A program made the position numbers and the translations under genes. The notes beneath the pieces were generated by a model. It was given only the letters and a program-made list of their open reading frames with translations. It was not told the origin of the DNA and did not search any database. This document shows positions 10,067-49,440 of a stretch of 64,000 nt of DNA, piece after piece; the first letter of the stretch is position 1, and each line of letters begins with the position of its first letter. The DNA is taken from the NCBI RefSeq assembly GCF_058153355.1, contig NZ_CM177019.1; one strand, written 5' to 3'.

Positions 10067-10644
10067 AGCATGTACTGCATACCTCCTGCCTTAGAATTAT
10101 CTCCGGCTAACTCCACCAAACATGGCTGTACACAGCCAGATAAGAACGCTTGCGCGCATCTGGATATCATACCGCTGCTGGAACTGTTTCTTAATCATCC
10201 TACCTTATTCGACCTATTCGTTACTGGCCATTATGAAGGACGCAAAGTAAGCGCTTTTTATGCGTTTTGGCCTAGTTATTATCACGTTACCTTAATATTA
10301 TCAGGAACGAGTTAACGCTGCTCATAACGGTCAAACCGATACTATAAAGCCCAATAATTGAAACCTTTTCATCATGTCAGGAAGATAGTCATCCTTATGA
10401 TCTTTATATAAAAAAGCCAACCATGGGGTTGGCAAAGTGGCACAAACCAGCATAAAAGCTATGCTTTGTTTACAAATCTTCTTTGAATTAAATATATATC
10501 GTCCTGACTAAACAGAACTAAAACGGAATGAATTATTTAATCATATTACTAAATTTCATTTTGTTTAGACTCTGTTGAGATCCCTTGTTTTAAATTTCAT
10601 TTAGATAAAATTCTTAATTAAATCCTTGGGAGTCAATTATCTCT

Positions 10645-10899
10645 ATGCAAAGTCAAGGAATGTACTTTGAAATGAACCTATACGCATATTTGAATAAATA
10701 TGATAGTCGGCTTTCAGAAGAAAAACTTGCAATTGATAAGGCAGTTAGAGATTTATATCTTTGCAACGAACACGTGGATAACAAGAGCATTATACTGAAA
10801 TTGCTCTCATTTTTATCATCTGCTGATGACATTGTTGAAAAAGATATTATCAGGAATGCTTTGGAAGTGGTGCTTCTTTTTACATTAGACGATATTTAA
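10645..10899 (+). CDS. AriR/YmgB-family paralog (connector-like small protein)
   Basis: 84-aa ORF; C-terminal half NKSIILKLLSFLSSADDIVEKDIIRNALEVVLLFTLDDI aligns with Ari[40 protein letters not shown]. Confidence 0.7.
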   Translation: MQSQGMYFEMNLYAYLNKYDSRLSEEKLAIDKAVRDLYLCNEHVDNKSIILKLLSFLSSADDIVEKDIIRNALEVVLLFTLDDI

Positions 10900-11147
10900 G
10901 TCATCTCAGGAGTTTTAATACACGAAGAGTGCCCGGATACTAGCGATTATATTCATATTTAATTATTAGTGCGGGGAAAGAGATTATGCATTGGCATATT
11001 TCTCTAACGTCCGCGATAGAAAAACAACTTTAAATATAAATAAAGAACAAACCACCTTTGCATTCAACCTCATCTGAGCTGACTATAGTACAAATTATAT
11101 TGATATTCTTTATCAACATCATTGGAACAGAAGAATAAGGCGAAGAA

Positions 11148-11471
11148 ATGAAGTGTATAGTAATTGATACTGTAATACAACCTTCGTGTGGTATATATTT
11201 TTCAGTCATATGGAGCGATATAAAAATGATCATTTGGTATCGTTCAAATATCTTTCTCCCACCTGGCAGCATATTTACAGTTATTAAGTCAGGTATTATA
11301 CTCGAGGATAAAGAATATCCGATCAGTATTTTTAACGTGGCGCTATTCAACAAAAATTTATGGAATTTAATCAAAAATAGTCAAGAGTGTCCTACAGAAT
11401 CAAACAAAATTACGAATAAATGCCTGCATAAGCATTGCATTATGCAAATATGTCCACATGGTCTCAAGTAA
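11148..11471 (+). CDS. iraM: Anti-adaptor protein IraM
   Basis: 107-aa [21 protein letters not shown]...[18 protein letters not shown]; recognised as IraM. Confidence 0.88.
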
Positions 11472-11518
11472 TGGGGGTTATTTAACCTTCCCTATATGCT
11501 ATAGATAAATCTACCAAA

Positions 11519-11560
11519 AACTGCCCCTTCGTAGAGGGGCTCTATGATTTTGTTTTATTT
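11519..11560 (+). terminator. Rho-independent terminator after iraM
   Basis: GC hairpin CTGCCCC-TTCGTAG-AGGGGC followed by a T-rich tract. Confidence 0.6.
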
Positions 11561-12205
11561 GAAGGCATGGTGCTGAATGTACTCGTTGAATCCAGATTCA
11601 ACACCTGAAGCTACACTTAACCCATAATACTTGTTTCTGGTTCCTCTACCGAGTGGTCAAACAATGATATGTATGTGACGTCAGAGTTTATTTTTTTAGT
11701 GTTTAATGCTATTAATTTAACGTAGTTACCTATCTTTTTTCTACCTTCTGAACTAACCTTAGGTTTCAACGTATCCGGCAGGAGGGGCTATCCCCAATCT
11801 TAAATTTTGCTGCCCGATTTGCTCAAGCCAAAGTTTTAATTTTACAACCTATAAACCTGAGTTAAATCAACCTCATGGTGCTGTCTGTTCCCGCTGTGGA
11901 ACAAGACTCACTGCAACATCTTGCATTCCTAAACTTCGCAGAAGGCGATGGGCAAAAACTGTACTGTAATGTTATTTCGATGTCTCTTATGGTAAATAGG
12001 AGGCGTCGAGGCTAAGTGAGTAGCCTGCTTGCTTCTCAAGCCTGGATACTATCAGCATTCACGTCAGATGAAATGATGATATTTCGCGTAAGAAAGAGGC
12101 ATTTTTTTATCAACTTCACATCGGAGATGGTAATAATCCTATGGGTCCAGTCCATATGAGGGGGTCAACATACTATAAAATTCACAATCATAAATTAACT
12201 ATATA

Positions 12206-13663
12206 TCAAGAACGCCAAAAAAATCCTGAAAATAGTATAATAACAGGGTAAATTTCAAGTCGACCAAGAATCATAGCAATACACATGAGATATTTTGCAA
12301 TATCATTAAGAACACCGAATGAGGATGCGGTAGCCCCAAAACCCAGCCCCATATTATTAATGCATGCAGCGACTGTCGCAAATGATGTAAGGAAATCATA
12401 TCCCATACCGTTTAGCACCAGTATAAAAAACACTGTAAAGAAAGTATAAAGAAAAAAGAAACTCCATACAGACCTCATTACGCGGTCTGTAACAATCTTC
12501 CCTCCTACATTTACACTAAGCAATGCTCTGGGATGAGAAAGCTGATTTATTTCGTGTTTACTTTGTTTAAAAAGTATAAGAAATCTAAGTGATTTAATTC
12601 CGCCGCACGTTGAGCCTATACATCCCCCAAAAAAACTTGACAGCAGCAAAAAAACTATCGTATGTGTGGGCCAGTTTGAATAATCCTGCGTAGCTAAACC
12701 ATTATCAGTGAGCATGGAGCTAGCAAGAAAAAACGAATGAACAACACTTCCAGTTAAGTCATACATACCTATATGCCAGACCTGGAAAGAGGTAACAATA
12801 ATAACACCTGAAGCTATTAACAAAAAGAAACGAAGTTCAACATCTGTGAGTAAGGGTTTTATTGTTTTCCTGCTTATAACAACATACCAAAGAGTGAAGT
12901 TGAAAGCCGATAACAGAGAAAAAGAGCCCGCCACCAGTTCAATCAAATAATTATTGAAATAGCCGATACTCTCACTATGAGTTGAAAAACCGCCAAGAGA
13001 AACTGTAGAAAGTCCATGACAAATAGCATCAAACAAAGGCATTCCTGCAAGTCGATAACAAACAATACAAGCAATGCCTAATAAAGAATAAGTTATCCAA
13101 AGTGTCCGCGACGTATCAGCCAAGCGTGGAGTCAGTTTGTCATCCTTAAATGGCCCTGGCATTTCTGACTGATAAAGTTTTGCACCACCAATACCCAATA
13201 ATGGCAACACAGCAACTGCCAGAACAATAACCCCTAAACCGCCGATAAAATTTAATTGTGACCGGTAGAACAAATATGCCCGAGATAATGAACTGACATC
13301 ATCAATTACTGTTGCTCCTGTTGTTGTTATTCCGGAAACCCCTTCAAACAGCGCGTCAGCAAACGTTAAATTAAGCTCTGAATCAATCCATAATGGAAAT
13401 GCGCTAATAATAGAAAATAAAATCCAAAACATTACAATTATAATAAACCCATCACGGGTGCGTAATTGAATGCCAGATTTTTTAGTGGTATACCACGCTC
13501 CGCCACCAATACAAAAAAATATAACAAAAGTAATAAAAAAAACGAACAAGCTTTTTTCTTTATAAAACAATGCTACAACCATTGGTGGTAACATTGAAAG
13601 ACTATAGAGCCAGACCAAGAACCCACACATATGAGTTACAACTCTTACATGAGATGTATTCAT
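12206..13663 (-). CDS. trkG: TrkH/TrkG-family K+ uptake membrane protein (TrkG-like)
   Basis: Multi-pass membrane protein with TrkH-family motifs (SGITTTGATV, repeated G-rich pore loops); 485 aa from MNTSHV (ORF could start 18 nt upstream at 13681); very AT-rich. Confidence 0.7.
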   Translation of the reverse strand: MNTSHVRVVTHMCGFLVWLYSLSMLPPMVVALFYKEKSLFVFFITFVIFFCIGGGAWYTTKKSGIQLRTRDGFIIIVMFWILFSIISAFPLWIDSELNLTFADALFEGVSGITTTGATVIDDVSSLSRAYLFYRSQLNFIGGLGVIVLAVAVLPLLGIGGAKLYQSEMPGPFKDDKLTPRLADTSRTLWITYSLLGIACIVCYRLAGMPLFDAICHGLSTVSLGGFSTHSESIGYFNNYLIELVAGSFSLLSAFNFTLWYVVISRKTIKPLLTDVELRFFLLIASGVIIVTSFQVWHIGMYDLTGSVVHSFFLASSMLTDNGLATQDYSNWPTHTIVFLLLSSFFGGCIGSTCGGIKSLRFLILFKQSKHEINQLSHPRALLSVNVGGKIVTDRVMRSVWSFFFLYTFFTVFFILVLNGMGYDFLTSFATVAACINNMGLGFGATASSFGVLNDIAKYLMCIAMILGRLEIYPVIILFSGFFWRS

Positions 13664-14099
13664 ATCCAAATGTTCTTTCAATTATAACCACCTTACTGCA
13701 ATGTCATGATTATACTGTATAAATTTTAACTCTTCTTAGATCTTACTTCACTGGTCCTTATGAAACAATCAGCAAAATGAATCTTATTATAACACTGTTC
13801 GGTTATGTATTGTTGAGCCTTCCCGCTGGGCCTGCATCATTACAAGTCGCTCCCTATGGGGCTTTGTCGAATAAATAATTTTTCGGTAAGTATCCCCTGA
13901 GCAGGTTGTATCTTCAGGCAGTATGAACACTTTCTGGCATACCTACCTTCGTCATTATGTTCAGCGTATGCACCATGACCAAAGCCTCTGCAACCGGCCG
14001 ATCATAATCTAGCAACATCAGAGAACCTCAGAATAACTGTTTTACCCTGTACATTGCCGTTTCCGCTATTGAGCAACGATTGTAATCTTTTGTCCATTT

Positions 14100-14530
14100 T
14101 CACCGGGAATTACCCTCGGTCAATCGCTGATACGCGACTGCACAGTTACGGTCGGCATACTCACCGGACCAGTAACCCGCTCCTTTTTGGGGTGGGATGA
14201 GCGCGCTGATTTTCACACGGCGCAGCTGCTCGTAACAGAGCCGAGAGGCGTAAACTCCGTCTGCTGCTGTCCTGATTTTTTGATGGGTTTGCCGGATTAA
14301 TCCGGCTACACCTCTACATCCGTTACGCTGAATGCTGAGGTCGCCCTTGGGAAGAAGGCATTGCTGACTTATACCAATCCGAAATCACCTCCTCGTGCAA
14401 CCAGACAGGGAGGGGCCTCGGTTGATAAGAGCTCTGTTATTGATGTGCCAGTTGGTGATTCTAACTTTTGCTTTGTAACGGGACGAGCCGTGTTGGCAGA
14501 TGATGTGTGGTCTGATCCTTAAACTCAGTA
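14100..14530 (-). pseudogene. IS5-family (IS903-group) transposase remnant
   Basis: Minus-strand frame without start codon encodes ...VAGLIRQTHQKIRTAADGVYASRLCYEQLRRVKISALIPPQKGAGYWSGEYADRNCAV..., matching the C-terminal region of the IS903 transposase as I recall it; truncated by stops; no intact ORF. Confidence 0.6.
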
Positions 14531-14544
14531 AAAGTACGATTTAT

Positions 14545-14585
14545 TCAAAAAAGCCCCTCCACTATGATTTCGATTTAAGGGGCTG
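14545..14585 (-). terminator. Rho-independent terminator downstream of the 458-aa gene
   Basis: On the minus strand, AGCCCCTT...AAGGGGCT hairpin followed by TTTTTGAATAAA. Confidence 0.5.
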
Positions 14586-14615
14586 ATGATTATGTAACGC
14601 GAATTTACCGGATCC

Positions 14616-16001
<1,386 letters not shown>

Positions 16002-16320
16002 TCAGGGGGGTTGATATTCCGGATCATGCCGTGTTTGCCCACGGCTCCCCCTGGAGAGCTGCAGACCTGTTTATTTAACTCGCACAGCGCCGGGGCCTGT
16101 CAGCAAACAGGGAGCATAACCGTCGTGCCATTAAACGCCAGACGGGAGATCATTATTATTTTATTAATACAGATTCGTTGCATTCCGGTCTTTACCGCAG
16201 TTTAAAAGAAAAGAGAATAGGGACTTAGGCAGTAGAGCAGTCATTGGACAGACCACACTACCCCAAACTAGCAGGGGAGTTTTGATAAAATTTTGATAAC
16301 CGTTAGCATGCTAACAAAAA

Positions 16321-16383
16321 ACAACGGGCGTGTTATACGCCCGTTTCAATATTTAACACATGTAGTGATTACATATTCTTGAT
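16321..16383. repeat. icd 3'-end/terminator repeat (copy B, native icd end)
   Basis: Partner of repeat A at 10005..10066; includes the icd terminator hairpin 16323..16345 and the icd stop codon and last codons. Confidence 0.6.
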
Positions 16384-17619
16384 GATCGCGTCACCAAACT
16401 CTGAACATTTCAGCAGTTTAGCGCCTTCCATCAGACGTTCGAAGTCATAGGTTACAGTCTTCGCGTTGATTGCGCCTTCCATACCTTTAACAATCAGGTC
16501 TGCGGCTTCAGTCCAGCCCATATGGCGCAGCATCATCTCAGCGGAGAGGATGATAGAGCCTGGGTTAACTTTGTCCTGACCAGCATACTTCGGCGCAGTA
16601 CCGTGGGTGGCTTCAAACAGCGCGCATTCGTCACCGATGTTTGCGCCTGGGGCGATACCGATACCGCCAACCTGCGCTGCCAGAGCATCAGAAATGTAGT
16701 CACCGTTGAGGTTCATACAGGCGATAACGTCGTATTCAGCCGGACGCAGCAGGATCTGTTGCAGGAATGCGTCAGCAATCACGTCTTTAATGACGATCTC
16801 TTTGCCGGTGTTCGGGTTTTTGACTTTCAGCCACGGCCCGCCGTCGATCAGTTCACCGCCAAACTCTTCACGCGCCAGCTGGTAACCCCAGTCTTTAAAC
16901 GCGCCTTCGGTGAACTTCATGATGTTGCCTTTGTGCACCAGGGTCACAGAGTCACGGTCGTTAGCAATTGCGTATTCGATCGCGGCACGAACCAGACGTT
17001 TGGTGCCTTCTTCCGAACACGGCTTGATACCGATACCGCAATGTTCCGGGAAGCGAATTTTCTTCACGCCCATCTCTTCACGCAGGAATTTAATCACTTT
17101 CTCAGCGTCGGCAGAGTCAGCTTTCCATTCGATACCCGCATAAATATCTTCCGAGTTTTCACGGAAGATAACCATATCGGTCAGTTCAGGATGTTTAACC
17201 GGGCTTGGGGTGCCCTGATAGTAACGTACCGGACGCAGGCAGATGTAGAGATCCAGTTCCTGGCGCAGAGCTACGTTGAGAGAACGAATACCGCCGCCAA
17301 CCGGAGTGGTCAGAGGGCCTTTAATGGCAACGCGATACTCACGAATCAGATCAAGGGTTTCAGCAGGCAGCCAGACATCCTGACCATAAACCTGTGTGGA
17401 TTTTTCACCGGTGTAAATTTCCATCCAGGAGATTTTACGCTCGCCTTTATAGGCTTTCTCGACCGCAGCGTCGACCACTTTCAGCATGGCTGGGGTTACA
17501 TCTACACCGATTCCATCACCTTCAATGTAAGGGATAATCGGATTTTCAGGAACGTTGAGTTTGCCGTTTTGCAGGGTGATCTTCTTGCCTTGTGCCGGAA
17601 CAACTACTTTACTTTCCAT
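16369..17619 (-). CDS. icd: Isocitrate dehydrogenase (NADP)
   Basis: 416-aa [41 protein letters not shown]...; unmistakable Icd. Confidence 0.97.
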
Positions 17620-30996: not shown

Positions 30997-31063
30997 CATT
31001 TAGCAAGGATGTGGCTAATGTTGCTGTTATGGACGAGTAAACACTAAAAGAGGCAGTAAATAT

Positions 31064-31097
31064 GCCAGATGCGGCGTCAACGCCTTCTCTGGTCTAC
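31064..31097. repeat. REP-like palindromic unit just 5' of the intron
   Basis: GCCAGATGCGGCGTCAACGCCTTCTCTGGTCTAC resembles the REP consensus GCCGGATGCGGCGTGAACGCCTTATCCGGCCTAC. Confidence 0.55.
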
Positions 31098-31697
31098 GAG
31101 TGCGACAAGAAGTCGTCCAACATATTGTTTTGATAAATTATTTATATAAAACCAACTATTCCATTAGTTGTAGCCTACTGAGGCAGGCAAAGCTGGTAAC
31201 GGCTCTGTCTGAAGCCCTTGGGACAATGTAGCTTAGCAAATATTGCTTCAGTTAATCGTGAGAAAACCTGATCGCTACAAGCATCATGCGGCGAGAGCGC
31301 TAGGCTGGGCGGTATGGTTAACATAGTGAACTGTCGTTAAACGTCGTAACAGAGAACGAGCCAAAGATGCTGATAGGCTTGCACCAAAAGGTAAGGGGTA
31401 AGGCTATTCCTGTTCGTAGTGGGAATACATGGACAATAACTCCCCCGGCGGATAGACAGAACCTAACCCGTTCTTTGTATGTTGGTCGGAACTTGGTAAG
31501 CCCGAATTCTCGCCCTAGTGGCAGGGGCACCGTAAGGCAAACTGATGAGAATGCGGGTAAAGGAGGATGGAAAAAGCGAAAGCCGGACTGTAATCGTGCG
31601 GATAGAGGTTCAATATTTGCCTTAACGGGAAACCGTGCTGACTTCCATCTGGTCTTTAATTGCGAAACATCTGCGAAGGTTTCTTTGGATGACATGT

Positions 31698-33377
31698 ATG
31701 AAAATTACATCTAACAATGTAACTGCGGTCATCAACGGAAAAGGTTGGCATTCCATTAACTGGAAGAAATGCCATCAACACGTTAAAACCATACAGACAA
31801 GAATCGCAAAGGCGGCATGTAACCAGCAATGGCGTACAGTCGGTAGATTGCAACGATTGCTGGTTCGCTCATTCAGCGCCAGAGCACTGGCGGTGAAACG
31901 AGTTACGGAAAATAGCGGGCGTAAAACCCCCGGAGTTGATGGTCAAATCTGGAGTACTCCAGAATCAAAATGGGAAGCGATATTCAAACTCAGGCGAAAA
32001 GGGTACAAGCCCCTACCGCTAAAAAGAGTTTTTATACCCAAATCTAATGGCAAGAAAAGACCATTAGGAATCCCCGTCATGCTTGACAGGGCAATGCAGG
32101 CCCTGCATCTGCTGGGATTGGAGCCTGTATCGGAAACTAATGCAGATCACAACAGTTATGGTTTCAGACCAGCGCGATGTACGGCTGACGCCATTCAACA
32201 GGTATGTAATATGTATAGTTCCCGGAACGCCTCGAAATGGGTTCTGGAAGGCGATATTAAAGGATGCTTTGAACACATTAGCCACGAGTGGCTGCTTGAA
32301 AATATTCCTATGGACAAGCAAATACTCCGTAATTGGTTGAAAGCCGGGATCATCGAAAAAAGCATATTCAGCAAAACTCTCTCGGGTACACCCCAGGGAG
32401 GAATCATATCTCCAGTTCTGGCAAACATGGCCCTGGATGGACTGGAAAGACTGCTGCAAAATCGCTTTGGTCCGAAACGCTCAAAAACATTCAGGAAACA
32501 TCAGGTTCACTTCGTCCGGTATGCTGATGATTTCATCATTTCCGGAAAGTCGAAAGAACTTCTGGAGGAGAATGTTCTTCCGTTGGTGAAATCATTTCTT
32601 GCAGAAAGAGGGCTGACGTTATCCGAAGAGAAAACGGTCATCACTCACATTACTGACGGATTTGATTTCCTTGGGCAGCACGTCCGACGCTTCGGTAGAA
32701 AACTCATAATCAGACCAGCCAAGAAAAACGTTAAACAATTTCTTAGCAAGATCAGAGAGACTATTGAAGGTAACCGAACGGTTCCTGCATGGGTGCTAAT
32801 AAATCTGCTTAATCCAATCATCACCGGGTGGGCAAACTATCACCAACATGTAGCATCGGCAGAGACATTTAACTATGTCGACAACCAAATCTGGCGCAAA
32901 ATCTGGCAGTGGTGCAGAAGGAGACATCCCGGCAAAGGCCGGAGATGGATCTTCCGAAAGTACCACACGACAATAAAAATGTGTCATGGTCGATTTTATG
33001 GAGTCGATCCGGAGGGTAGGAAATATGTTCTGTCCCGGGCCAGCGACATCCATATTAATCGCTATATAAAAATAAAGGGAACGGCAAATCCATATGATCC
33101 CGAGTGGGAAACATACTTCGAAAGAAGGCTGGACTACTCATGGAAGAAATCCCAACAGGGGCAGAAAAGGATTCTCGCTATATGGAAAAGGCAAGGATCG
33201 CGCTGCCCTTTATGTGAGCAACCGATTAATCGCGATACAGGATGGAATGTTCATCATTTGCTCAAGAAATCTCTTGGCGGTAGCGATGATGTGAGCAATT
33301 TAGTCCTACTCCATCCCAACTGCCATCGACAACTACATAGTAATGACGCTGGTCTCCCACAAGGTGGAGGCTTATAA
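31698..33377 (+). CDS. Group II intron-encoded protein (reverse transcriptase / maturase / HNH endonuclease)
   Basis: RT motifs including YADD (HFVRYADDFIISG), maturase/X region, C-terminal HNH (CPLCEQPI...HHLLKKSLGGSDDVSNLVLLHPNCHRQLH); start could be 31635 or 31689. Confidence 0.88.
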   Translation: MKITSNNVTAVINGKGWHSINWKKCHQHVKTIQTRIAKAACNQQWRTVGRLQRLLVRSFSARALAVKRVTENSGRKTPGVDGQIWSTPESKWEAIFKLRRKGYKPLPLKRVFIPKSNGKKRPLGIPVMLDRAMQALHLLGLEPVSETNADHNSYGFRPARCTADAIQQVCNMYSSRNASKWVLEGDIKGCFEHISHEWLLENIPMDKQILRNWLKAGIIEKSIFSKTLSGTPQGGIISPVLANMALDGLERLLQNRFGPKRSKTFRKHQVHFVRYADDFIISGKSKELLEENVLPLVKSFLAERGLTLSEEKTVITHITDGFDFLGQHVRRFGRKLIIRPAKKNVKQFLSKIRETIEGNRTVPAWVLINLLNPIITGWANYHQHVASAETFNYVDNQIWRKIWQWCRRRHPGKGRRWIFRKYHTTIKMCHGRFYGVDPEGRKYVLSRASDIHINRYIKIKGTANPYDPEWETYFERRLDYSWKKSQQGQKRILAIWKRQGSRCPLCEQPINRDTGWNVHHLLKKSLGGSDDVSNLVLLHPNCHRQLHSNDAGLPQGGGL

Positions 33378-33383
33378 AGGCTT

Positions 33384-33417
33384 GAGCGGTATGCGGGGAA
33401 ACTCGCACGTACCGTTC
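33384..33417 (+). ncRNA. Group II intron domain V (catalytic hairpin)
   Basis: GAGCGGTATGCGGGGAAACTCGCACGTACCGTTC matches the domain V consensus (GAGC...GNRA loop...GTTC, AGC triad context). Confidence 0.7.
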
Positions 33418-33477
33418 TTAGGGGGCGGCGAGACAGTAATGAATCGCTGCTACCCGACCACCCGCAAATTCAATTCA

Positions 33478-47807: not shown

Positions 47808-48128
47808 CGTGACCCCCTTAAATTTATTAACCAATTGTTAACTAATAGTTATTAATATAGCTCTTAATTAACAACAGGTTACAGCAATGAAAATGTTCTT
47901 CGTTATTGAGAATAACATGAATGGTGCATTGGTCATACCAAAATTGATGTTAATCAAGTTTTGTTGCTGAAAAGATAGGCTGATTTACCGGATGAGATCA
48001 AAAAATACAGCTTATTGTTTATTATTCAAACGAATTCAGGAGGGTGAGACGTATATGGAGGGCGTTTGGTAGATACTGTTATGGCCTGCAAGTTTTTTTC
48101 TACCCCGGTTTCCCAGATTGCAGGCATG

Positions 48129-49440
<1,312 letters not shown>

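What the first reader, a model, noticed from the sequence alone, without database searches (positions are those of the whole stretch)
12206..13681. AT-rich TrkG-like potassium transporter gene inside the icd island
The ORF has TrkH-family pore-loop motifs and is 485 aa from the second Met, the length I associate with TrkG, the paralog that in K-12 lies in the Rac prophage and is also strongly AT-rich. Here a TrkG-like gene sits at a different, icd-adjacent locus next to an IS remnant. This suggests repeated horizontal carriage of this transporter on prophage-type islands.
Basis: partly seen in the sequence, partly recalled or inferred. Interest (0 to 1): 0.5.

Follow-up and report, generated by a model that had tools for sequence, protein, structure and literature searches.

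The report
Second trkG allele beside icd
This is an intact copy of the known phage-borne potassium transporter gene trkG, left beside the icd gene by a decayed lambda-like prophage rather than sitting in the usual Rac prophage; it is a tidy example of repeated phage delivery of one host-useful gene, but not a new kind of system.

Summary
Window 12206..13663 (-) encodes a 485-aa protein that is 96.3% identical, without gaps, to K-12 Rac TrkG and 40.5% identical to TrkH. GC is 37% (GC3 29%). The gene lies in a 4.9-kb island between icd and iraM, next to an internally deleted IS903-like element.

It is a separate allele, not a displaced Rac copy and not an assembly artefact. DNA identity to Rac trkG is 90.5%. 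dS is 0.46, against 0.02-0.22 for flanking core genes, and dN/dS is 0.044. The whole island occurs in 18 of 5426 complete E. coli genomes, each with no Rac-type copy; about 1530 genomes carry the Rac-type allele.

Homology to Rac covers only the gene plus 190 bp upstream and 50 bp downstream. The upstream part contains a fossil of the 3' end of the phage Rz spanin gene. The adjacent icd 3' end is of the phage-21 attachment type.

My best reading is that a lambdoid prophage carrying trkG after Rz integrated at icd and then decayed, leaving trkG under purifying selection. E. albertii holds a third allele at a third locus.

The gene family, function and prophage origin are already known, and PGAP already names this gene trkG. 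Interest is low to moderate.

The parts
12206..13663 (-). trkG coding sequence: 485 aa plus stop. The mechanical ORF extends to a TTG at 13681.
   Evidence: Identity is 96.3% to K-12 TrkG with 0 gaps and 40.5% to TrkH. dN/dS is 0.044. PGAP uses the same start in L001 and L006.
13664..13791 (-). Conserved trkG upstream region (probable promoter/leader). It includes a TATAAT at 13709..13714 that is conserved in the Rac, E. albertii and E. fergusonii copies.
   Evidence: Alignments. The consensus promoter scan did not flag a full -35/-10 pair here, so promoter function is inferred.
13792..13854 (-). Fossil of the 3' end of a lambdoid Rz (i-spanin) gene. It reads RERLVMMQAQ.EG / AQQYITEQC, with a 2-nt frameshift and an 18-nt deletion that removes the stop codon.
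   Evidence: compared with Rz of phage vB_EcoS-683R6 and Rac. Homology to Rac and the phages starts at 13854.
12156..12205 (-). 50-bp downstream end of the cassette shared with Rac and the phages.
13860..14555 (-). IS903-like (IS5 family) remnant. Both inverted repeats are present, about 380 bp are deleted internally, and identity to IS903 is 77-80%. The transposase is a pseudogene.
   Evidence: A possible decayed 9-bp target duplication, CATAG(T)GGAG, flanks it (inconclusive).
14616..15992 (-). Orphan hypothetical protein (455-458 aa) with internal repeats. It is the island's only other intact gene.
   Evidence: It has no Pfam or NCBIfam match and only E. coli homologues. Its C-terminus weakly matches phrog_11707 (1.6e-8).
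16314..16533 (-). Phage-21-type 3' end of icd (last 165 nt, giving a C-terminus ...IIKNM), plus 55 nt after the stop that include the terminator at 16323..16345.
   Evidence: 158/165 and 53/55 identical to AF017626 (phage 21 attL), against 151/165 and 39/55 for the e14 type and 153/165 and 50/53 for K-12 icdC. Also.
16280..16313 (-). About 35-40 nt resembling the left end of e14 just after its icd terminator. This is the mosaic left edge of the island.
   Evidence: 32/41 identical to e14
11472..12155 (.). AT-rich spacer (39% GC) of unknown origin between the trkG cassette and iraM. It has no credible ORF and contains a bidirectional terminator at 11523..11540.
   Evidence: It is present only in the same 18 genomes and has no match in the phage or plasmid collections.
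9850..11471 (+). Linked divergent haplotype: an iraM allele (11148..11471, 81.5% nt identity to K-12), an extra YmgB/AriR-family gene (10645..10899), and a 67-nt relic of the icd 3' end and terminator (10001..10066).
   Evidence: It is restricted to the same 18 genomes.

Best explanation
**What the gene is**
- It is a functional allele of trkG, the K+-translocating membrane subunit of the Trk uptake system.
- TrkG is a TrkH-family protein with four pore loops. From the K-12 protein it would work with the host's TrkA, take up K+ in a Na+-dependent way, and be partly repressed by H-NS because it is AT-rich. These properties are inferred from the K-12 protein, not shown for this allele.

**How it got here (inferred from sequence relics)**
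1. trkG was an accessory gene of a lambdoid phage, lying just after the Rz lysis gene, as in Rac and in sequenced phages.
2. Such a phage integrated at the phage-21/e14 attachment site at the 3' end of icd and replaced the end of icd with its own copy.
3. The prophage then decayed by deletions and an IS903-like insertion.
4. Only the last ~65 nt of Rz, the trkG promoter region, trkG and 50 bp downstream survived. trkG stayed under purifying selection.
5. The ~9-kb block containing the island was later shared among E. coli lineages by homologous recombination.

This acquisition is independent of the Rac trkG.
For: **Identity (shown)**
- 96.3% identical to TrkG, 40.5% to TrkH, no gaps.
- Family matches and solved TrkH structures 4J9U and 3PJZ at E about 4e-118.
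- The residues that PMC9898762 implicates are retained.

**Constraint**
- dN/dS is 0.044 against Rac and 0.043 against E. albertii.
- Among five icd-type copies, 6 of 7 segregating sites are synonymous and all ORFs are intact.

**Independent origin**
- dS is 0.456 against Rac, compared with 0.02-0.22 for 11 core genes in the same genome pair.
- The >=99% allele occurs only in 18/5426 genomes, always at icd, and never together with a Rac-type copy.

**Phage origin**
- Homology to Rac is limited to 13854..12156.
- An Rz C-terminal fossil lies upstream.
- In the lambdoid phage ON470595, trkG sits between Rz and parB/terminase.
- All 39 full-length trkG copies in IMG/VR have the Rz C-terminus upstream.
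- TrkG has its own PHROG.

**icd site**
- The icd 3' end is phage-21 type.
- Near-identical ends are seen in genomes with a duplicated icd end, which I take to be lysogens.
- icd is a documented attachment site for phage 21 and for e14 (PMC12803456).
- trkG points away from icd, which fits the late-gene direction of a lambdoid prophage whose attL is at icd (inference from the standard lambda map).

**Spread by recombination**
- The window and strain WL297 differ by 0.1-0.9% over about 7000..16300, but by 1.6% over potA..icd.
Against: - The island has no integrase, no attR (duplicated icd end) and no recognisable phage gene apart from the 65-nt Rz fossil.
- The 684-bp spacer and the 458-aa gene have no phage match of substance.
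- No intact phage or prophage with the icd-type allele was found in INPHARED, PLSDB or IMG/VR.
- The phage-21-type icd end is common in E. coli and could come from an unrelated earlier lysogeny.
- A possible target-site duplication around the IS remnant would mean the hyp458/Rz' junction predates the IS, leaving that junction unexplained.
- Function, TrkA dependence, Na+ dependence and H-NS repression are all extrapolated from the K-12 allele. Substitutions A329S and S330N lie next to D327.
Confidence: 0.75

Rival explanations
1. Intragenomic move. The Rac trkG of E. coli was transposed or recombined to the icd region by the adjacent IS903-like element, so this is one acquisition rather than two.
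For: An IS903-like remnant abuts the start of the cassette within about 5 nt. Island-bearing genomes lack a Rac-type trkG, as a cut-and-paste move would predict.
Against: - dS of 0.456 between the alleles is 2-20 times that of core genes in the same two genomes.
- There is only one IS copy, so no composite transposon.
- No genome among 5426 has the icd-type allele in Rac, or an intermediate allele: identity bands are >=99% in 18 genomes and 90-95% in 1533, with nothing between.
Confidence: 0.07
2. Import of a ready-made block. The whole icd-to-ycgX haplotype (hyp458, IS remnant, Rz'-trkG, divergent iraM, extra ariR-like gene) was assembled in another Escherichia lineage or a close relative. 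It entered E. coli by homologous recombination, so no phage ever integrated at icd in the E. coli lineage. This concerns the route into E. coli, not the phage origin of the cassette, and is partly compatible with the best explanation.
For: - iraM is only 81.5% identical to K-12 iraM, and the iraM/ariR-like block is confined to the same 18 genomes.
- The block is more conserved between strains than its flanks.
- The bluR side is also unusually divergent from K-12, at 92.6%.
Against: - No donor was found among 100,044 species representatives. The closest non-E. coli allele (E. albertii) is more distant, at 84.8% nt, and lies at another locus.
- The exact protein was found only in E. coli-type icd contexts.
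Confidence: 0.3
3. Decaying relic. The gene is intact only by chance and is silent or non-functional here. The low dN/dS would then reflect constraint while it was still in a phage, not in its present position.
For: - Everything around it is degraded: the Rz fossil, the IS pseudogene and the missing int/att.
- The AT-rich DNA is a likely H-NS target (PMC9898762).
- No consensus promoter was found by the scan.
Against: - The 1458-nt ORF is intact in all five copies compared, with 6 synonymous and 1 non-synonymous polymorphism. PGAP names trkG under the match in all 18 island-bearing genomes.
- The upstream 190 bp, including TATAAT, is conserved across alleles.
- In K-12, H-NS lowers trkG expression but does not silence it (PMC9898762).
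- In IMG/VR, some Rac-type copies do carry frameshifts (L061, L064), so decay is visible where it happens.
Confidence: 0.1

Closest known systems
E. coli K-12 TrkG (P23849, b1363) in the Rac cryptic prophage
   Same: - 485 aa, 96.3% identical, no gaps.
- Same low GC (37-38%).
- Same 190-bp upstream and 50-bp downstream sequence.
- Same Rz-trkG junction.
- D121, E231, D327 and G322 retained.
   Different: - Located at icd rather than in Rac at ttcA.
- 138 nucleotide differences (dS 0.46).
- 18 amino-acid substitutions, including A329S and S330N next to D327, and R273T.
- The surrounding prophage is reduced to a 65-nt Rz fossil.
- Present in 0.3% of complete E. coli genomes, against about 28% for the Rac allele.
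TrkH (E. coli b3849; Vibrio parahaemolyticus TrkH structures 3PJZ and 4J9U)
   Same: Same Pfam family and fold class: four M1-P-M2 repeats. Strong sequence match to the solved TrkH chains.
   Different: - Only 40.5% identity.
- Fails the NCBIfam TrkH equivalog cut-off (445 against 866 bits).
- TrkH is a core gene of normal GC, and is Na+-independent with no Na+ uptake (PMC9898762).
Accessory genes of lambdoid phages placed after the lysis cassette (Rz/Rz1), e.g. trkG in phage vB_EcoS-683R6 (ON470595) and Salmonella phage SPF_0923
   Same: The cassette begins inside the Rz 3' end and ends about 50 bp after trkG, exactly as in these phages.
   Different: Here no lysis, terminase or structural genes remain. 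The allele is about 10% diverged in DNA from every phage-borne copy found.
icd-integrating prophages e14 and phage 21 (and NC-SV)
   Same: The island starts right after an icd whose last 165 nt plus 55 nt are of phage-21 type. The next ~40 nt resemble the e14 left end.
   Different: There is no integrase or excisionase, no duplicated icd end at the far side, and no e14 genes. The island is 4.9 kb, against 15 kb for e14.
TrkG-clade genes elsewhere in Enterobacterales (E. albertii, E. fergusonii, Citrobacter, Pectobacterium, Pantoea, Buttiauxella, Serratia, Morganella)
   Same: One paralogue clade at 61-93% identity, clearly separate from TrkH and patchily distributed.
   Different: - Most have host-like GC: Buttiauxella 51% and Morganella 47-49%.
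- The E. fergusonii copy lies in a non-phage context.
- E. albertii keeps the low GC and part of the Rz fossil, but sits between copD/yebY and pphA.

Membership tests
TrkG (Rac-type Trk K+ transporter subunit) | Much closer in sequence to E. coli TrkG than to TrkH, full length, no gaps | tested here: met
   467/485 identical to K-12 TrkG with 0 gaps; 195/482 identical to TrkH. PGAP names the near-identical WP_001360580.1 'TrkG'.
TrkG (Rac-type Trk K+ transporter subunit) | TrkH-family architecture with four pore loops and their conserved glycines | tested here: met
   PF02386 scores 478 bits over residues 40-483. TIGR00933 scores 404 against a cut-off of 331. G322 was checked by position, and the P-loop motifs TTTGAT, LGGFST, TDNGLAT and NNMGLG are identical to K-12 TrkG.
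TrkG (Rac-type Trk K+ transporter subunit) | Acidic residues D121, E231 and D327 near the filter, linked to Na+-dependent activity (PMC9898762) | tested here: met
   D327 was checked by position; D121 and E231 are not among the 18 substituted positions. Neighbours 329-330 differ (AS to SN). This is sequence only; the phenotype was not tested.
TrkG (Rac-type Trk K+ transporter subunit) | K+ uptake activity dependent on TrkA; Na+ dependence; Na+ uptake | not testable with these tools
   This needs complementation and ion-uptake assays. It is inferred from 96% identity to the characterised protein (PMC9898762).
TrkG (Rac-type Trk K+ transporter subunit) | Residence in the Rac prophage (a historical attribute of the K-12 gene, not a property of the protein) | tested here: not met
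   The gene lies between icd and iraM. No Rac genes are in the island.
TrkH equivalog (NCBIfam NF008020) | Score at or above the curated cut-off of 866 bits | tested here: not met
   445 bits
Lambdoid-phage accessory gene in the post-Rz slot | Gene immediately downstream of the Rz/Rz1 spanin genes, with shared junction sequence | tested here: met
   A fossil of the Rz C-terminus (RERLVMMQAQ / QQYITEQC) lies at 13854..13792, collinear with the phage and Rac junctions.
Lambdoid-phage accessory gene in the post-Rz slot | Embedded in a recognisable (pro)phage genome | tested here: not met
   The island has no other phage genes. No phage carrying this allele was found.
icd-integrating prophage (phage 21 / e14 type) | Phage-derived replacement of the icd 3' end (attL) | tested here: met
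   158/165 and 53/55 identical to phage 21 attL (AF017626).
icd-integrating prophage (phage 21 / e14 type) | Integrase/excisionase, and a duplicated native icd end (attR) at the far boundary | tested here: not met
   There is no integrase ORF. The only other icd-like sequence is a 67-nt relic at 10001..10066, beyond iraM.

The most novel reading that the evidence does not exclude
trkG may be a long-standing, actively selected conversion gene of lambdoid phages, fixed in the slot after Rz. On this reading it has been captured by Escherichia hosts at least three separate times: Rac at ttcA, the icd island here, and copD/yebY-pphA in E. albertii. Each time the carrier prophage decayed around an intact, strongly constrained trkG. 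That would imply a recurrent fitness benefit of Na+-coupled K+ uptake to the lysogen, or to the phage during infection, which has not been identified experimentally.
Probability: 0.4. Interest if true: 0.4.

Novelty: new member of a known kind. Interest (0 to 1): 0.22.

Why it matters
- **A natural replicate.** It adds a second case to the textbook one of a 'foreign' transporter domesticated from a prophage. The same gene, delivered by a different phage event to a different hot spot, was again kept intact while the phage was lost.
- **Support for host benefit.** This strengthens the view that trkG is retained because it benefits the host.
- **Material for structure-function work.** It offers a naturally diverged allele with 18 substitutions, two of them next to D327, for work on Na+ dependence.
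- **The icd-iraM interval.** It also shows this interval to be a layered graveyard of integration events.
- **Limits.** It does not reveal a new mechanism or open a long-standing question.

Tried and rejected
- **Assembly chimera of Rac sequence.** Rejected. The allele differs from Rac by 9.5%, and the arrangement recurs in 18 complete genomes and 2 other assemblies.
- **The island is e14.** Rejected. Only about 40 nt after the icd terminator resemble e14.
- **attR search.** I looked for a duplicated icd end between trkG and iraM and found none. The only copy is a 67-nt relic at 10001..10066.
- **684-bp spacer.** No ORF of 60 aa or more. No blastn or tblastx match to Rac, phage, E. albertii or E. 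fergusonii loci beyond the first 50 bp. No hit in the phage or plasmid collections.
- **458-aa neighbour.** No Pfam, NCBIfam or PADLOC match, and only E. coli orphan homologues. I did not pursue it further.
- **TrkG as a defence gene.** No PADLOC hit.
- **Phage carrying the icd-type allele.** An allele-specific 26-mer found nothing in IMG/VR. All 39 full-length IMG/VR copies are Rac-type.
- **Promoter scan.** It gave no more sites than shuffled sequence, and none directly upstream of trkG.
- **Rfam scan.** It found no RNA family in the island.
- **Literature.** I found no paper describing trkG at icd.
- **IS903 target-site duplication.** A 9-of-10 match with one indel, which I regard as inconclusive.
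Full report

Yes. The six-frame ORF list shows a 491-aa ORF at 12206..13681 on the minus strand, starting at TTG. The first ATG, at 13663, gives 485 aa. PGAP uses this start for the same gene in near-identical genomes and names it trkG.

The protein hits Pfam TrkH (PF02386, 478 bits) and the TrkH-family subfamily model TIGR00933 (404 bits, cut-off 331). It fails the TrkH equivalog model NF008020 (445 bits, cut-off 866).

A global alignment gives 467/485 identities and no gaps against K-12 TrkG, and 195/482 against K-12 TrkH. GC is 37.4% (GC3 29.4%). That compares with 38.1% for K-12 trkG, 53% for trkH and 51% for the neighbouring icd.

The gene lies between icd (16369..17619, -) and iraM (11148..11471, +). 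An IS5-family remnant lies upstream.

**2. What is around it?**

Read in the direction of icd and trkG, the interval from the icd stop to the iraM stop (16368..11472, 4.9 kb) contains the following.

- The icd terminator (16323..16345).
- About 40 nt resembling the left end of e14.
- An orphan 455-458-aa gene (14616..15992).
- An IS903-like element with both inverted repeats but an internal deletion (14555..13860, 77-80% identical to IS903).
- The trkG cassette (13854..12156).
- A 684-bp AT-rich spacer with no credible ORF.

In K-12 the same interval holds the 15-kb e14 element followed by a 165-nt icd pseudo-end. The window has neither.

**3. Relation to Rac trkG**

BLAST against the K-12 Rac region shows that homology is confined to 13854..12156. 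That is the gene plus about 190 bp upstream and 50 bp downstream, at about 90% identity.

Within the coding sequence there are 138 differences in 1458 nt: dN 0.020, dS 0.456, dN/dS 0.044. Eleven core genes compared between the window and K-12 have dS of 0.02-0.22. The two trkG alleles are therefore several-fold older than the divergence of their host genomes, and they have evolved under strong constraint.

In 5426 complete E. coli genomes, 1533 carry a copy 90-95% identical to the window (the Rac type) and 18 carry a copy at >=99%. Nothing lies between 95% and 99%, and three records fall at 80-90%.

The 18 are exactly the genomes that hold the whole island, at 99.3-99.7% identity. Each has a single trkG place, so none also has a Rac-type copy. 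The exact protein is also encoded in two further assemblies in the same context. One of them is 99.98% identical to the window over 17.5 kb. Misassembly and chimerism are excluded.

**4. Phage ancestry of the cassette**

In the lambdoid phage vB_EcoS-683R6 (ON470595), trkG lies between the i-spanin gene Rz and a parB-like gene followed by terminase. This is the classic slot for accessory genes.

The window's homology to this phage and to Rac begins inside the end of Rz. Translation of 13854..13792 gives RERLVMMQAQ.EG and, after a 2-nt frameshift, AQQYITEQC. This matches the Rz C-terminus ...TLRERLVMMQAQLEGAQQYITEQCLK. An 18-nt deletion removes the stop codon. The icd-adjacent cassette thus carries a fossil of a phage lysis gene.

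All 39 full-length trkG copies in IMG/VR viral contigs also have the Rz C-terminus upstream. All are Rac-type, at 98.6-100% nt identity to K-12, and two carry frameshifts. TrkG has its own PHROG family. Rac-type cassettes also occur on plasmids of Citrobacter, Klebsiella and Enterobacter.

I found no phage carrying the icd-type allele.

**5. The icd end**

The last 165 nt of the window's icd and the next 55 nt match the phage-21 attL sequence (AF017626) at 158/165 and 53/55. The e14-type end of K-12 icd matches at 151/165 and 39/55. The native K-12 pseudo-end icdC matches at 153/165 and 50/53.

The diagnostic ...atcaagaatatgtaatcactac... (protein ending IIKNM) is shared only with phage 21. Highly similar ends occur in many genomes that have two copies of this segment, which I take to be lysogens at icd. 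icd is a documented attachment site for phage 21-like lambdoid phages and for e14 (PMC12803456).

trkG points away from icd. That is the direction of late genes in a lambdoid prophage whose attL is at icd (inference from the standard lambda map).

Against a simple story, the island has no integrase and no attR. The phage-21-type end is common enough that it could stem from a different, earlier lysogeny.

**6. The IS remnant**

The IS903-like remnant ends about 5 nt from where homology to Rz begins. This suggests the IS took part in removing the rest of the prophage.

However, the sequences flanking its inverted repeats (CATAGTGGAG and CATAGGGAG) look like a decayed target duplication. That would instead mean a simple insertion into an existing junction. 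I leave this open.

**7. Wider haplotype and spread**

The iraM next to the island is only 81.5% identical to K-12 iraM. It is followed by an extra YmgB/AriR-family gene. This 1.6-kb block is restricted to the same 18 genomes.

A 67-nt copy of the icd end and terminator sits beyond it at 10001..10066. K-12 has the same relic between ymgK and ymgL, which points to older integration scars.

Between the window and strain WL297, divergence is 0.1-0.9% from about 7000 to 16300, but 1.6% over the core genes potA..icd. This suggests that a block of about 9 kb including the island has moved between E. coli lineages by homologous recombination.

**8. Other alleles**

A scan of one genome per species found a third low-GC allele in E. 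albertii NBRC 107761. It is 92.8% identical in protein, with dS 0.93 to both E. coli alleles and dN/dS of 0.043-0.047. It lies between copD/yebY and a truncated pphA followed by rsmF, and keeps part of the Rz-derived upstream sequence.

E. fergusonii has a 79%-identical gene between an OmpC-family porin and hchA.

More distant members of the same clade, at 61-77% identity, are scattered through Citrobacter, Pectobacterium, Pantoea, Buttiauxella, Serratia, Xenorhabdus and Morganella. In Buttiauxella and Morganella the GC is host-like. TrkG is therefore an accessory paralogue clade of Enterobacterales, distinct from TrkH.

**9. Function and mechanism**

By 96% identity to the characterised protein, the product should be the membrane subunit of a Trk K+ uptake system. 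For K-12 TrkG, K+ uptake requires Na+, the protein also takes up Na+, D327 is implicated in Na+ activation, and H-NS lowers but does not abolish transcription (PMC9898762). The requirement for TrkA is established knowledge of the Trk system, not something I read in that paper.

The window allele keeps G322, D121, E231 and D327. It has 18 substitutions, including A329S and S330N beside D327, and R273T, which is polymorphic among icd-type copies.

A TATAAT at 13709..13714 is conserved in all four Escherichia versions, although the generic promoter scan found nothing significant.

Among five icd-type copies, 6 of 7 polymorphisms are synonymous.

The sequence identity, constraint and context are shown. 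The transport activity, partners and regulation are inferred.

**10. Comparison with what is known, and verdict**

The gene family, its function, its low GC and its prophage origin are textbook. trkG is known as one of the few well-conserved Rac genes (PMC5700373). PGAP already labels this very gene trkG.

What appears undescribed in the literature I could search is this second, diverged allele at the icd hot spot with its Rz fossil, and the E. albertii third locus.

That makes it a new member of a known kind. It is a neat case of repeated phage delivery and host retention of one transporter, of modest interest (0.22).

Noticed in passing
window 31020..33460 (+): A complete-looking group II intron. 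Rfam D1-D4 (RF02012) matches at 31152..31299 with 112 bits. A 580-aa reverse-transcriptase/maturase ORF lies at 31635..33377. Domains V-VI (RF00029) match at 33382..33458. It lies in a 2.4-kb segment that replaces the K-12 ycfZ-ymfA region.
   Followed up: partly
window 48036..49427: A 1.3-kb insertion relative to K-12 between ycfP and ndh. It carries an IS110-family transposase ORF (48178..49158, -). Next to it is a naRNA4/CssrE REP-type element at 49352..49427.
   Followed up: partly
window 9850..11471: The iraM allele is only 81.5% identical in DNA to K-12 iraM. An extra YmgB/AriR-family gene (10645..10899, +) accompanies it. Both are confined to the same 18 of 5426 genomes as the trkG island. 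IraM also matches a PHROG family.
   Followed up: partly
window 10001..10066: A 67-nt copy of the last 15 nt of icd plus its terminator (84% identical). K-12 has the same relic between ymgK and ymgL. It looks like the scar of an older integration at icd, which would place iraM itself inside an ancient island.
   Followed up: partly
window 14616..15992 (-): A 455-458-aa orphan protein with two internal repeat pairs. It has no Pfam, NCBIfam or PADLOC match. Its homologues are only E. coli hypothetical proteins (55-61% identical, about 513 aa, more than 1000 member sequences). Its C-terminal 130 residues weakly match phrog_11707.
   Followed up: partly
L009 (E. albertii NBRC 107761) 7819..9462; L019 (E. 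fergusonii) 7001..8458: E. albertii has a third low-GC trkG allele between copD/yebY and a truncated pphA. E. fergusonii has a 79%-identical TrkG-clade gene between an OmpC-family porin and hchA. These are further independent chromosomal positions for this transporter.
   Followed up: partly
window 14540..14575 (-): The left inverted repeat of the IS903-like remnant (GGGGCTTTTTTG...) also supplies the 3' half and T-run of a hairpin (AGCCCCT...AGGGGCT) just after the 458-aa gene. The IS end may therefore serve as that gene's terminator (read from the sequence).
   Followed up: no
window 1..1845 (-): An AIDA-repeat autotransporter gene runs off the start of the window, preceded by a small ATPase pseudogene fragment. 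This follows the annotation of the near-identical strain WL297.
   Followed up: no
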